From assembly GCA_051294375.1 (NCBI GenBank), contig CM119271.1, positions 10,191,605-10,255,604 of the forward strand: a DNA stretch of 64,000 nucleotides. Reading direction: 5' to 3'. Source of the DNA: Paraspadella gotoi (lineage: Eukaryota; Animalia; Chaetognatha). This document shows positions 15,501 to 21,500 of the stretch, in pieces. The notes beneath the pieces are model-generated. The model was given only the letters and a program-made list of their open reading frames with translations, was not told where the DNA came from and ran no database searches. Both the position numbers and the translations under genes were made by a program. Position 1 is the first letter of the stretch, and each line of letters begins with the position of its first letter.

Positions 15501-18500
15501 TAACCATATTTTTAATAAAATCCCTAACCTAATTCTTAACCATCCTTTACTTAACCCTTATCTTTAACCTATAACCTTATTTTTAAACATAAAAATTTTT
15601 TTTTTAATTTTTAATTAAAGCGAAAATGGGGCACTTTTAAAAAATATAGCCAACTTTTCTTTCTTTTATTCTTTAAAGTTTTTGGGAAAAAGGTAAACAT
15701 GAGGCTACATTAGTTTTGGCAGATGTTGTGAGTAGCACGTTCCCGTTACCGGGCTACACGTAACATGCACCCCTAATTTTTTTTTTAAAGAGATGTAAAG
15801 CTAGAGAGATGAGAGTTTTCAAGTACAATTCTTTGAATCGTTCCATGAAAACAGAATTTGTTTCTCATTAAATCTAAATAACTTGATTATGAGACATTGA
15901 AAGAGAACACGAACTTTCTAATCATCTTGCGGGAGATTAAAAAAAAAAGCAAATAAAAGAAAAAACAAGCTGTGACCTTGACACACGCGCCCCCCACCAA
16001 GCACCAAGCACTCGACCCAATTCCCCTTCCTCTCCCCAACAACCCTCACAAAAAAACCAACCCGAAAAACCAAGAAAACTTACCTCTGCAGAAAATCCTT
16101 CCACCAAAATGGCAACTAGTAAGTTAAACAGAACGTAGTTGCCGAACGTCATTAGTGCAACGAAATAAAGCGATGCCCAAGCGGAAGTGTTTGCCATTCC
16201 ATTATACAAAACTTCATTCCAATCTTCTTGAGTCAGAATCTTGATTGATTTGTCGGGGGCGGAAGGTGGGGGGGGGGTAAAGCGGCGCGTTAAGAAACCT
16301 TGGCTTTTTGCGAACTGCGGATTTTTTTTGTTCGGAAATGTATTGTACACTACAGTACTGTATTGTACACTGTAATGTACAGGGTTTTTTTAGGAGCGCG
16401 AAACTTTAATTGAAATAATGTCCGATTTTTAAGTTAGCAATTTAGAAATTTAGAAATTTAAAAATTCAGTAAAATATTACGACGTTTGTTATTAAGTTTC
16501 GGCTTCTTTAAAAAAAAAATCCTAGTTCTTATTTGTTAAATTCATGCTGTTAATAATGTTAGCGAGACAGATTAGTCGCATTTGACGCTTAAACTAAACA
16601 AACAACCAAGAAAAAGTGTCCTACATAAAAGAAGTTTTTTTTTTCATTTTGCGCCAAAATATTTAGCCCTAATTTTAAAGTTAAATTAGTTAAGCCAATA
16701 TTTATAAAACATTTTTTATATATAAGGCAAAAAATGAGAAAAAAAAATCATCGCTGAAAAGAGGACACGCTTCTAAGGCCGTATACAACTGGTCTTCCTA
16801 CTTTGAGCAAATTAACATCCATAAAAGATTTCAATACCCCTAAAGACTTTCTAAAGAAAACTTAAGAGACCAGTAGATACCAGAAATGTTAATAGAACAG
16901 AGAAGTACGGTTAATAAGCTCATGCTAAGTACTTATTCAAAGATGAAGAAAGAGGGAGAATGAGTAAGTAAAGATGCTTTTAATCCGAGGAATCACAAAT
17001 ATTTTTTTTAATCTAACTTGATTTTAATCTTCCTTAACTTTATTCATATTTAAATTTACGCCTAAGTTGCTGTATACCAAGCGACGCTGTGTTCGACTAC
17101 TCCCTGCGATCAACCTGTTTTCATGCGACCTCTATCATGCCTCGCGCTTCCTAAAATACGCGCAAACAAAAGTCTATGAAAAAAAATTTTATTTAAAAAT
17201 TAATAAATCAAGAGAAAAAGAACATTGGTCGATAATTAGGAAAAAATGCGATGAATATATATGCGATATTATGCTTTTTTATTTTAAATAAATAAATAAA
17301 TTTAAAAAAAAATCTAAATATCAATAAAAAAAAAACAACATAATTAAAAAAAACAAAAAAAACCGAAACATACGGTATTATTCTATCGAAGGTCGAACTT
17401 AATTTTTTAGAAATTAACGCTCCCTGCCGGACGGAATAGATTAGTCTCGGCAGGAGATTGAATCAAATTAAACAATAAATAAACAAATGGATAAATGATT
17501 GAGAATTTAAAATATAAAAAAAATAACTTTTTTTTTTTGTACCTGGAAGACGGTGACAATGGCCCATAATAGGGTATCGAAATTTCTGCGATCGCAAAAA
17601 CAATCTTTGACCGTGGCGTTTCGCTGTTCTTCGCACGTACAGACTTGACCGCCCGGTTTCGTACAAAACTTTCCTCCGAAGAGGTTCATGCCCAGAATGC
17701 TGACGTCGCCGGAGAATTTTTTTGGTTTTTTTTTTATTTTTTAATTTTTTTTGGGGGGGGCGGGGAAGTGGGACAGGAAGCAGTGCGAGAGTAAGGGAAG
17801 TTTTTTTTCCAGCAGAAAAAAAGTGAAGAGATAGTCACACGAAACGAAGGTGAAGCATCACGTGATATTGGGTGAGTTAGAAATGTGGTGAGGAATTTAG
17901 AAAGGGGAAGAGGATTTAAACGACCAGGAGGGGGGGAGGGTTTTGGAGAGGGGGGGCGGGGCGGGAAGGAAAACACATCGAGTTGATTATCACATCGATG
18001 AAAAGTGGGAGGTGGTTTAAAAACTCACGCTGGAGTTTGACCACCTTTAGATATTTTAAACGCGAGTCGGTTTCGTTTTGAATTTTAATAATTATTCTTA
18101 ATTATTAATTCTTAATTCTTAATTATTCTTAAAGTTTTCTTGGTTTGGTAATGTGAATTCCAAAAATTCGTAATCAAATAAGCTAAATAATTTGAAAACG
18201 ACTGGCATTTAAAATTTTTAATCTTGACAAAATTTAAGAAACCATATTTCTTTTTCTTTAAATTTAAAGCACGTATTTTGAAATATCAATTGAAATATTA
18301 ATTCATATATATATATTGTAGAAACATATTGCAATTTTTTAAAAGTGTATAATTAGTATTTTTATTCAAAATTTCGACAATAAACACATAGGGAAAATAT
18401 TTTGAAAAAAAAACGTGTGATAATGTTTTTAAAACGTGATTTTAGTATGTTAACGATCGTATCCCCTCGCAAAATATTCGGCCCGTCTATCCACAAAAAA

Positions 18501-21500
18501 AAAAAAAAAAAGCAGAAGTCATTCGCCATCTTGCTTTTTTTTTTCTTCTTAAGGCCTCATTCTTCCGCGACAGAAAAGTCTAGGACGACAACGAAAGTTC
18601 GGACTGTCCGACTGTCCGGCTGAAACTTATAACCTCTGCTTATTTAGTTTTAATTTAATTTTAAAATCAGATAAAGGAAAATGCCTTTCGGATCAAATAT
18701 TTTGAAAAATCCTTAATTTCGCTTTAGATATTATTAATAAATAAATATACACATATTGAATATAGTTAAAATTCACAGTTTCAGCGGGCTAGTAGCATCT
18801 GTCGCGTAACCCAGAGCAACGGGACTCTGAAAACTCCACTTGAGACTCTCTAGGAAACTTGAAGGGTTCACAATCTTCCAAATTTTCTAAGAATCGCTAC
18901 GTAATATTCCTTTTTTTCCTCCTCCTCCTCCTCCTTATCCTCCTCCAACCAAGCTGCGCCTTCCCCGGATGCGAATCGTGGCGTAACTCCGTATCTAACC
19001 TGAAACACCGTAATGAGCGCCCAGCGGAGCGAATCGAAATTCTTGCGCTGGCAATCTTTGAATCGGCCGCGCGCCCGCTCGGAGGCCGGGCAGAATTTGC
19101 AGCCGAACAGTTGCATGCCAAGAATACTTTGGAGAAGTCATTTCGTTAGGTTTAAGAAAAGACTGATTTAATTTTTTTTTTTTAAAAATAGGGAGAGATT
19201 TCTTTAAAGAAAAAACTAGAAAAGATTATTCTGAACTTTCCAGTAAAGCCCTTTTGTTGGTTATTTTGACCGGAGCATTTAAAATTAAGAATAAGAGCGA
19301 CACCTGTCGTATTATTTCGTCAACACGACGAATAAAAATAAACAAAAAGACCACCAACCTGAAAATGAAAATGAAAAGCATGAGCAACGAGAAAAATGTG
19401 GCCACATTGTCAACGGTCCGCAACATGACGACGAGTTGGCGACGCACGCCGGCATGAAGCGAACTAGCTTGAGGATGCGGAGCAGGCGGAAGGTCCGCAG
19501 GACGCTCAAGCCGCCCTTACCGTCTTGGGTTAGTTCAACAATACTGAGGATCAGGAGCAGCGGTTGAGAGGAAGAAAGGGGAAGAAAAAAATAAGGAAAT
19601 GGGAAAGAAACGTTTGGAGATTTAAATTTGTAACAAATTTATAGATTGTGTATGTAATAGAAAAGGAATAGTTTTATAGTTAAACAGTTATTTTTTGTTG
19701 TATCTGAAGTGATTTTAGTGTTTTTTTGTTGTGTTTTTTACATGAAATGGTTTTTTTATATAAGTAAACTTTTTCTCCGCCGAGAGATTTTTCGTTTTGT
19801 CGACCGTAGTCTTAGAAAGTACATACTGTTGACATAGTAAATGACGATGATAAATTTATTAATGAGATACAAAAGAGTTAGTTATTGTTAGTAGGAATTA
19901 GTAATTAGTTTTATTTTTCTTTTTCTTAATCTGAAATAGGAATTAGTAATATCATATGTCTCAATGAATCGAACTAATAAAGGTTTATTCATATTTCTGC
20001 GATTCCCTTTGTTTATCCGACGGCGACCTTATTTTTAAGAGGAAAACAACCGATCGCTAGCGACATCTATCGAAAACCTGAGGAGTCGTAAAAAGCATTG
20101 TACTCATGCTTACTTTTAATTATCACATCAAAATTAAGTCGACTAATTAGTTTGTGTCGATTGAGCTGATAAAATTAGTTTTAAAAAAAATGGTTGTTTT
20201 TATTTTATTTGTCGATTCTCACCTGAGTGTAACAATAAAACCATCAAAAACATTGAAACCATTTGAAACATAACCAATGATGCCGAATGCGATAAGTTTG
20301 AGCACCATTTCCAAGGCAAATAGGGCAGAGAAAATGAGGTTGCTGATTTCCAAAACGTCCGTCAACACTTTAGGCTAAAGAAAGGAATAAGGAATAAGGA
20401 AAAAGGAGATCATAAATAACAGATATCATAGATATCACTATTCAGTAAGGCGAGCCAAAATTTAACACTTTTTATAACTTCTAGTTCTCTCAAAAAAAAT
20501 TATTTTTTCCATTTATTGTTAAATCGATTTTCATTGAGTTGTTGCACTGAAGCTTTTAAATATTTATCTAACAAATGACAACAATTTTTTTTTTAAATTT
20601 ATTTTTAAGAACGGATTCCTATAAAGCTTAAAAAGTTAAATAAAAGTTATACTATAATTTTTAAAAATTTTGGCAATAATAAAATAGAAAAAAACCTTAA
20701 AAAATCATCATCATCATCATCATTGTCTAAATTTGAGGGTTTTTAAAAATTTTCATCAACACAACAAAAATTTTTTTAAAAAGTTGTAATAATAACCTTT
20801 ATCCAACTTTTAAAGCTCTATCAGAATCTATTAAAAAAATTAAAAAATTAAAAAAAATTTTAAACTTCATATAGTAATAAAATTATTTTTAAATGCTTCC
20901 ATGCGCTATATAAATTTTAAAATTATTTTCATATTCAAATTCTGATTTATTCTGAGAAATATTTTTTGAATGATCTTTACGAAAGTACGAATGTCTAATT
21001 TACTATATTTTACGCGATATTTTCTCGTCTACGTTTGGTGCGAGTGAGAACAAAACGTATCCACGCATTTAGGAAAACTTCGTCTAAACGAAAATTTGAG
21101 TTCATAACTCAAATCGACTTTTCGGAAACCATTTATCAACCGAATGTAGCGAGTGGGAGAGAAAAGCAAAACGATCCTTCCTTGTAGGAGATGGTTTACT
21201 GCTTCTCTCTCTCATCTCTCTCTCTCTTTCTCTCTCTCTCATCTCTCTACTTCTTCTCTCTCTCTCTCTCTCTACTCTCCTCTTTCCTCCCTCTCTTCTC
21301 TCTCTTTCTCCTCCTCTATTGGTTTTCATCATCATTCTTTGTAGTTCTCTATCTTTCTTTCCCTTTCTCTCTCTCTCTCTCTCTCTCTCTCTTCTTCCCT
21401 CTCCTCTTCCTCTCTCTCTCTCTCTCTCTCTCTCTCTCTCTCTCTCTCTCTCTCTCTCTCTCTTCTCTCCTCTCTCTCTCACTCTCTCTCTCTCTCTCTT

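What the first reader, a model, noticed from the sequence alone, without database searches (positions are those of the whole stretch)
17543..19126. Mutually exclusive domain II turret exons 12a/12b: a Na+/Ca2+ selectivity switch
Seen: two paralogous exons for the same S5-to-pore-helix segment, 42 aa with 3 Cys (basic, no sequon) and 52 aa with 5 Cys plus an NAT sequon. Both are phase 2-0, so including both or neither breaks the frame. Known: in Lymnaea LCav3 exon 12a gives a highly Na+-permeable channel and 12b a more Ca2+-selective one; vertebrate Cav3 genes lack this switch. Inference: the same switch exists here. Not novel in kind, but this 12a turret is notably Arg/Lys-rich ([17 protein letters not shown]).
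Basis: partly seen in the sequence, partly recalled or inferred. Interest (0 to 1): 0.7.

Follow-up and report, generated by a model that had tools for sequence, protein, structure and literature searches.

The report
T-type channel swap exons, both basic
An invertebrate T-type calcium-channel gene carries the well-known pair of swappable outer-pore exons, but both versions keep a positively charged residue where snails switch between lysine and alanine, so the splice likely tunes an already sodium-leaky channel rather than flipping it between sodium and calcium.

Summary
Cav3 exons 12a (19126-19000; 42 codons, 3 Cys) and 12b (17699-17543; 52 codons, 5 Cys, NAT sequon) are both phase 2-0, with AG/GT ends. 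One public transcript contig splices exon 11 to 12b and skips 12a. Spliced 12a was not seen. This is the known protostome 12a/12b pair.

The inferred Na+/Ca2+ switch fails its key test. In Lymnaea, selectivity hangs on one residue 20 positions before the domain II aspartate: Lys in 12a, Ala in 12b, and Ala-to-Lys makes 12b Na+-permeable. Here 12a has Lys and 12b has Arg. Arg occurs in 2 of 100 distinct 12b-type loops (this one and an 88%-identical relative). Lys occurs in 78, so a basic 12b is the common state outside molluscs and nematodes.

Best reading, untested: both isoforms are Na+-leaky and the splice tunes degree and kinetics. The 12a turret is the most basic of 54 collected (+5), but a published planarian loop is +6. 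The domain IV loop that also matters lies outside the window. The scan's earlier notes held no look-alike sequence. Known system, modest interest.

The parts
21722..21832 (-). Cav3 exon 9 (domain II S1), ends approximate
   Evidence: tblastn with Lymnaea and insect Cav3
20223..20374 (-). Cav3 exon 10 (II S2-S3), phase 0 to 2
   Evidence: tblastn, splice sites; the loose end of the X1 contig beyond exon 11 matches this exon's 3' part
19359..19543 (-). Cav3 exon 11 (II S3-S4-S5), phase 2 to 2; one base short in the window
   Evidence: two-frame tblastn match; X1 contig carries one extra base behind 19446
19000..19126 (-). Alternative exon 12a: short tri-cysteine turret plus P1 helix, net +5
   Evidence: GC3 0.74 in an AT-rich surround; covered only by an unspliced contig in X1
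19042..19044 (-). Switch-position codon of 12a: AAG, Lys (equivalent of Lymnaea K1067)
   Evidence: register check
17543..17699 (-). Alternative exon 12b: long penta-cysteine turret plus P1 helix, NAT sequon
   Evidence: spliced to exon 11 in X1 contig 1, 157 of 157 letters identical
17585..17587 (-). Switch-position codon of 12b: AGA, Arg (Ala in Lymnaea, A1078)
   Evidence: unedited in the X1 contig; Arg also in P0001
16084..16239 (-). Cav3 exon 13 (domain II filter TQED with the 'beacon' Asp at 16224-16222, P2, S6)
17773..17784 (-). Candidate RNA arm upstream of the 12b acceptor; pairs 12 bp with 17107-17096 and would loop out 12b (weak lead)
   Evidence: 6 of 200 shuffles reach it; picked post hoc; not seen in 3 of 3 distant two-exon loci
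17085..17160 (-). GC-rich island in intron 12b-13 with several possible pairing partners (weak lead)
18603..18622 (-). Tandem intronic element complementary (12 bp, twice) to exon 12a 19111-19100 (weak lead)
   Evidence: 2 of 150 shuffles reach it; post hoc; not seen in 3 of 3 distant loci

Best explanation
This is the known protostome Cav3 exon 12a/12b pair, with exon 11 spliced to 12b in one transcript contig, and because both exons put a basic residue at the selectivity-switch position (Lys in 12a, Arg in 12b) the splice likely tunes an appreciably Na+-permeable channel rather than flipping it between Na+ and Ca2+. SHOWN: two paralogous phase 2-0 exons; 11-to-12b splicing with 12a skipped; premature stops if both or neither are used; Lys and Arg at position -20 from the intact domain II aspartate. 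FROM PAPERS: in the snail channel a Lys at that position gives high Na+ current in three different loops (native 12a about 15.7-fold, 12b Ala-to-Lys 13.5-fold, human loop about 7.4-fold), against 2.3-fold with Ala. INFERRED: Arg salt-bridges and neutralises the aspartate as Lys does; 12a is also used in some tissue; 12a, with net +5 against +1, is the more Na+-biased form; the main isoform differences are then degree of permeability, gating speed (the Cys tether to voltage sensor I is placed differently), blocker sensitivity and an added N-glycan. Exclusivity is likely enforced at least by decay of frame-shifted messages; the 1,300-nt intron rules out steric exclusion.
For: Exon anatomy and frames. 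Splice joint 17699/19359 with GT-AG ends on the gene's strand. Register: Lymnaea Ala is 20 before the Asp and 14 before the exon's last Gln, and the window has Lys and Arg at that same offset; the paper's numbers K1067/D1087 and A1078/D1098 are also 20 apart. Mutant data: PMC9694082; human-loop chimera: PMC7382465 passages. Arg is kept in an 88%-identical relative, P0001. A basic residue in 12b is common: K 78, A 11, M 6, T 3, R 2 of 100 distinct loops; 54 of 54 12a-type loops have K. All 3 fetched loci holding both exons are K/K, as are named Vespula and Dendroctonus proteins.
Against: No channel with Arg at this site, and no K/K channel pair, was tested in the papers I read. Lys there is not sufficient: human Cav3.1-3.3 and Trichoplax Cav3 have it and pass only about 21-31% Na+ (PMC5379919). 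High Na+ current also needs the invertebrate domain IV L6 loop, which is not in the window. The side-chain geometry could not be modelled: the isolated 12b model was poor (pLDDT 60.7, pTM 0.27). Spliced 12a was not seen in the single run available. The 154 comparison loops were chosen by likeness to this 12b exon and are redundant by lineage.
Confidence: 0.5

Rival explanations
1. One reading: a true Na+/Ca2+ switch. The Arg in the five-cysteine loop does not reach or neutralise the aspartate, so 12b stays Ca2+-preferring, and the very basic 12a loop makes the Na+ form.
For: Cysteine patterns and lengths match the snail pair. 12a carries the required Lys and is the most basic of 54 loops. Both exons are kept in many lineages with K/K, so something differs between them. 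PMC7382465 speculates that any Arg or Lys of the 12a loop could neutralise the aspartate (the authors say it was not tested there).
Against: In the snail, the rest of the loop did not matter: 12a K-to-A behaved like 12b and 12b A-to-K like 12a. The papers claim the Lys/neutral rule for molluscs and nematodes only.
Confidence: 0.3
2. Neither isoform is strongly Na+-permeable; both are ordinary mixed T-type channels, and the splice affects only gating, glycosylation or pharmacology.
For: Human and Trichoplax channels have Lys at the site and low Na+ flux. The effect depends on the domain IV L6 loop, unseen here.
Against: PMC7382465 states that the four-cysteine domain IV loop is found in most invertebrate channels, and this 12a has both the tri-cysteine frame and the Lys.
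Confidence: 0.1
3. Exon 12a is rarely or never used and is drifting, which would explain its unusual residues (Arg before the P1 Trp, extra basic residues).
For: No spliced 12a contig in X1; its cover (depth 2.4) is like that of intronic contigs (2.1-5.1). No candidate sharing three 5-residue words among longer proteins. Arg before Trp in 1 of 54 loops. Some species have lost one exon (PMC4436565).
Against: Open frame, canonical splice sites, all three Cys and the KNFD motif intact, GC3 0.74 against AT-rich introns. One small run of contigs cannot show absence; the snail's 12a is the heart isoform, so it may be tissue-restricted.
Confidence: 0.07
4. A-to-I editing of the AGA codon to GGA (Gly) restores a neutral residue in some 12b messages, so the switch is kept but gated by editing.
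For: The codon is one edit from Gly. The 3' half of 12b can pair with an intronic island downstream; the best 12b-intron duplex overall was reached by 0 of 24 shuffles.
Against: The transcript contig shows unedited AGA. In the predicted duplex the codon lies in an unpaired loop. Strong helices are not in excess over the whole region (28 of 200 shuffles reach the count).
Confidence: 0.03

Closest known systems
Lymnaea stagnalis LCav3 exons 12a/12b (PMC9694082; PMC7382465)
   Same: Same position, order, phases, tri- and penta-cysteine patterns and length range; Lys at the switch site in 12a; domain II 'beacon' aspartate present; sequon in 12b.
   Different: 12b has Arg, not Ala; 12a is 42 aa and net +5 (snail 39 aa, +2) with Arg before the P1 Trp.
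Arthropod Cav3 12a/12b pairs (Daphnia in the PMC7382465 supplement; Vespula P0155, Dendroctonus P0011; loci L049, L056) and the annelid 12b with Lys (Capitella)
   Same: A basic residue at the switch position in both exons, or in 12b.
   Different: They have Lys; the insect and Daphnia 12b reads HFN after it. Here it is Arg followed by NFD. I found no selectivity comparison of their two isoforms (passages of PMC5286435 and PMC4673464).
C. elegans CCA-1 exons 12a/12b
   Same: Alternative short and long turrets; Lys in 12a.
   Different: Met at the switch site in 12b and a different cysteine order (CxxC...C...CxC).
Human Cav3.1/3.2/3.3 (PDB 6kzo, 9ayg, 7wli)
   Same: Homologous S5-P1 segment with Lys at the same position.
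   Different: Single exon, one cysteine, Ca2+-preferring.

Membership tests
Cav3 (T-type) channel | Best similarity of domain II segments to Cav3 rather than Cav1/Cav2/Nav | tested here: met
   PDB hits Cav3.1/3.3/3.2 at E 1e-8 to 1e-6, Cav1.3 at 0.31; 73-84% identity over the constitutive blocks matched in 11 Cav3 proteins
Cav3 (T-type) channel | EEDD filter across four domains | not testable with these tools
   only domain II and linkers lie in the window; no whole genome held
Protostome Cav3 exon 12a/12b pair | Short tri-cysteine exon (38-46 aa, CxxC...C) followed by long penta-cysteine exon (48-55 aa, C...CxC...CxC) | tested here: met
   42 aa with 3 Cys and 52 aa with 5 Cys against ranges in PMC7382465
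Protostome Cav3 exon 12a/12b pair | Same phases and intact splice sites; both or neither breaks the frame | tested here: met
Protostome Cav3 exon 12a/12b pair | Each exon is spliced singly into mRNA | tested here: inconclusive
   11-to-12b shown in 1 contig of 1 run; 12a seen only unspliced; the join to exon 13 was not examined
Lymnaea/nematode-type Na+/Ca2+ selectivity switch | Lys at position -20 from the domain II aspartate in 12a | tested here: met
   AAG at 19044-19042
Lymnaea/nematode-type Na+/Ca2+ selectivity switch | Neutral residue (A, M, S, T) at that position in 12b | tested here: not met
   AGA, Arg, at 17587-17585 in the window and in the transcript contig
Lymnaea/nematode-type Na+/Ca2+ selectivity switch | Domain II 'beacon' aspartate (ED) present | tested here: met
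   exon 13 begins ILTQED
Lymnaea/nematode-type Na+/Ca2+ selectivity switch | Four-cysteine domain IV L6 loop | not testable with these tools
   domain IV absent from the window
Lymnaea/nematode-type Na+/Ca2+ selectivity switch | Measured difference in Na+ versus Ca2+ current between isoforms | not testable with these tools
   needs electrophysiology

The most novel reading that the evidence does not exclude
It would be the first natural Arg test of the aspartate-neutralisation model and would show that in most protostomes the 12a/12b splice does something other than switch ions, with exon choice possibly set by competing intronic RNA helices.
Probability: 0.3. Interest if true: 0.5.

Novelty: new member of a known kind. 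Interest (0 to 1): 0.3.

Why it matters
The exon pair itself is textbook for protostome T-type channels, so finding it here is expected. What matters is the caution it gives. The one-residue switch shown in the snail is often extended to all invertebrates, yet 80 of 100 12b-type loops collected here carry a basic residue at that site. This gene, with Lys versus Arg, is a natural test: an Arg-to-Ala mutant would show whether the aspartate-neutralisation model generalises and what the splice is for when both loops are basic.

Tried and rejected
No whole genome is held, so domains I, III and IV could not be read. A homologue search with exon 12a found no candidate among proteins of 73-2000 aa (weak evidence). 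The run search listed one holder, not on record as RNA; its spliced contig shows that it contains transcripts. Lack of a spliced 12a contig is not counted as absence. The junction to exon 13 was not examined in reads. AlphaFold2 of exon 12b alone was too poor to use; the spliced pore module could not be folded, so the salt bridge is untested. Taxon placement: identities to mollusc, insect, flatworm and nematode Cav3 are flat, and the closest relatives of exon 12b and of the CD36 neighbour are unnamed records (Atlas), so I could not place the animal myself; no tree was built. Assembly-artefact origin of the two exons was rejected: they differ in length and are far less alike than the window's 85-95% duplicates, each resembles its own class in other animals, and the inverted duplicate stops at 19473, before either exon. 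Steric exclusion was rejected (intron 1,300 nt). RNA docking sites: the repeat finder gave mostly AT-rich repeats; the best duplex overall did not beat shuffles; strong helices are not in excess; single helices reach nominal 2 of 150, 2 of 60, 6 of 200 and 0 of 24, while two other exon-intron tests gave 4 of 34 and 2 of 27, all chosen after looking; none recurs in 3 distant two-exon loci, and 1 of 14 single-exon control loci reached 3 of 50. The original 2014 paper on the switch is not held; it is known to me only through later papers. The bee and fly papers' passages did not compare exon-12 isoforms. Searches for an Arg variant or a chaetognath report found none, in an open-access library only.
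Full report
OBSERVATION. The finding lies on the minus strand, in a Cav3 (T-type) channel gene. Exon 12a is 19126-19000 (127 nt, one base plus 42 codons, 3 Cys, no sequon). Exon 12b is 17699-17543 (157 nt, one base plus 52 codons, 5 Cys, one NAT sequon). Each has an AG acceptor and a GT donor. The flanking introns are 232, 1,300 and 1,303 nt. Either exon alone brings phase 2 back to phase 0. With both, the first stop falls 23 nt into exon 13; with neither, at the third codon. 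Both match the domain II S5-P1 segment of human Cav3 structures and of a Lymnaea stagnalis protein, P0003, that carries both snail exons. The lengths and cysteine patterns fall inside the published ranges for 12a (38-46 aa, CxxC...C) and 12b (48-55 aa, C...CxC...CxC) (PMC7382465).

GENE CONTEXT. tblastn finds exons 9, 10, 11, 12a, 12b, 13 and linker pieces, but no domain I, III or IV. A CD36-family gene lies on the plus strand at about 3200-8800. The window holds a large inverted duplicate (19473-29706 against 41809-31192, 83-95% identical) that stops short of both exon 12 copies, so the pair is not a product of that duplication. Exon 11 is one base short in the window; the transcript contig has the base, so this is probably an assembly error, or an allele.

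SPLICING. One public run holds the region (X1, contigs only, kind guessed). Of 5 contigs laid on 17530-19560, one (721 nt, depth 6.1) joins exon 11 directly to 12b, skipping 1,659 bases with GT-AG ends on the gene's strand; it matches 12b in 157 of 157 letters and runs on into exon 10. Exon 12a is covered only by an unspliced contig of depth 2.4, with no difference inside the exon. So 12b use and 12a skipping are shown, 12a use is not, and contigs cannot show absence. The join to exon 13 was not examined.

THE SWITCH RESIDUE. PMC9694082 (parts 1-6 of 8 read) traces the snail switch to one residue. K1067 of 12a is modelled in a salt bridge with the aspartate after the domain II filter glutamate; 12b has A1078. 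12a K-to-A drops the Na+-dependent current increase from 15.6-fold to 2.2-fold, and 12b A-to-K raises it from 2.3-fold to 13.5-fold. The paper's numbering puts the residue 20 before the aspartate, and in P0003 the Ala is indeed 20 before it and 14 before the exon's last Gln. At the same offset this gene has Lys (AAG, 19044-19042) in 12a and Arg (AGA, 17587-17585) in 12b, and the aspartate is intact. The neutral residue that makes the snail's calcium form is therefore missing. The paper and a review claim the Lys/neutral rule for molluscs and nematodes. One named nematode protein, from Romanomermis, has Lys in a five-cysteine loop.

HOW UNUSUAL. From 150 HMMER hits, later cluster members and 80 metagenome loci a motif pattern recovered 159 distinct loops; 39 of the 150 HMMER hits did not fit the first pattern and were left out of that count. 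Of 100 12b-type loops, 78 have Lys, 11 Ala, 6 Met, 3 Thr and 2 Arg (this exon and P0001, 88% identical, unnamed). All 54 12a-type loops have Lys, as do 5 unclassified ones. The 3 loci that hold both exons are K/K, as are Vespula and Dendroctonus proteins and Daphnia in the published alignment (supplement of PMC7382465, part 1 of 6 read). The sample was selected by likeness to this exon and is redundant by lineage, so these are not frequencies across animals. The 12a loop here has net charge +5, the highest of 54 (next +3), and is the only one with Arg before the P1 Trp. By my count from the printed alignment, the Schmidtea-2 loop is +6, so a very basic turret has a precedent.

MECHANISM. In the snail background a Lys at this site gave high Na+ current in three loops: native 12a, mutant 12b, and the human loop (about 7.4-fold; PMC7382465 parts 1-2 and passages). 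I infer that Arg acts similarly, so both isoforms are likely Na+-leaky, with 12a the more so, and that the splice mainly changes degree, kinetics (12a is slower in the snail), blocker sensitivity and glycosylation (0.5). Against this, Lys is not sufficient: human and Trichoplax channels have it and pass about 21-31% Na+ (PMC5379919 passages), and the effect needs the invertebrate domain IV loop, which I could not read. A true switch by other means stays possible (0.3), as do two ordinary mixed channels (0.1), a silent 12a (0.07) and editing of AGA to Gly (0.03). No structure test was possible; the model of exon 12b alone was poor.

EXCLUSIVITY. The intron between the exons is too long for steric exclusion. 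Frame-shift decay is predicted for both and for neither. I also looked for competing RNA helices. A 12-bp helix between 17784-17773 and 17107-17096 would loop out 12b and appears in the centroid fold of a region I chose to contain it; 6 of 200 shuffles reach it. Exon 12a 19111-19100 pairs with a tandem intronic element (2 of 150). Strong helices are not in excess overall (28 of 200), the picks were post hoc, and neither recurs in 3 distant two-exon loci. This is a lead only.

ORGANISM. I could not place it: identities to named mollusc, insect, flatworm and nematode Cav3 are similar and the closest relatives are unnamed. An earlier, unreviewed note on the same genome calls it very likely an arrow worm (e1-10588039). 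I did not test that. Searches found no report of exon 12a/12b in chaetognaths or of an Arg variant, but the library is open-access only and lacks the 2014 paper whose species list may bear on this. The supplements of PMC9694082 were not read. Other papers seen: PMC4436565, PMC10120453, PMC6259924, PMC5286435, PMC4673464 (passages); PMC10017353 (part 1 of 2). The scan's index held no look-alike sequence and, by words, only analogous exon pairs in other channels.

VERDICT. A real, known feature: a new member of the protostome Cav3 12a/12b kind. It does not meet the defining residue of the snail-type Na+/Ca2+ switch. The Lys/Arg state is a small but testable twist. Interest 0.3.

Noticed in passing
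window 19359-19543 (-): Exon 11 is one base short and out of frame in the window; the X1 transcript contig has the extra base behind 19446. Probably an assembly error.
   Followed up: yes
window 19473-29706 and 41809-31192: Large inverted duplicate, 83-95% identical with many gaps, bounded by short N runs; carries degraded copies of Cav3 exons 9 and 10 (39113-39247, 40827-40960). Further direct duplicates at 44189-46699 and 47546-50929. Looks like gap-filling or haplotype artefact.
   Followed up: partly
window 3206-8840 (+): CD36/scavenger-receptor-B gene on the opposite strand, about 1.7 kb beyond the last candidate Cav3 II-III linker exon; Cav3 domains III-IV are not in the window, so it is nested in a Cav3 intron or the scaffold is misjoined.
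   Followed up: partly
window 17160-17085, 17784-17773, 18622-18603, 17459-17418 (-): GC-rich intronic elements with alternative pairing partners around exons 12a/12b, including a local hairpin about 90 nt after the 12b donor (z -2.7, 3 of 200 shuffles); further helices link 17158 to 16408 and 17143 to 16588.
   Followed up: partly
P0134 (Romanomermis culicivorax): A nematode five-cysteine loop with Lys at the switch site, an exception to the published statement that all nematode 12b exons are neutral there.
   Followed up: no
L033 566-2637; L057, L067, L068, L072, L076, L080: Loci in which exons 11 and 13 flank a single exon 12 found by the motif scan, five-cysteine in L033 and three-cysteine in the others, suggesting loss of one alternative or sorting of 12a and 12b types into separate paralogous genes.
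   Followed up: no
L049 2482-2640, L051 348-461: Exon 12 copies ending in a GC donor rather than GT.
   Followed up: no
window 46280-46221 and 50575-50456 (-): Two copies of a Cav3 I-II linker motif (APRASPE), inside the direct duplicate.
   Followed up: no
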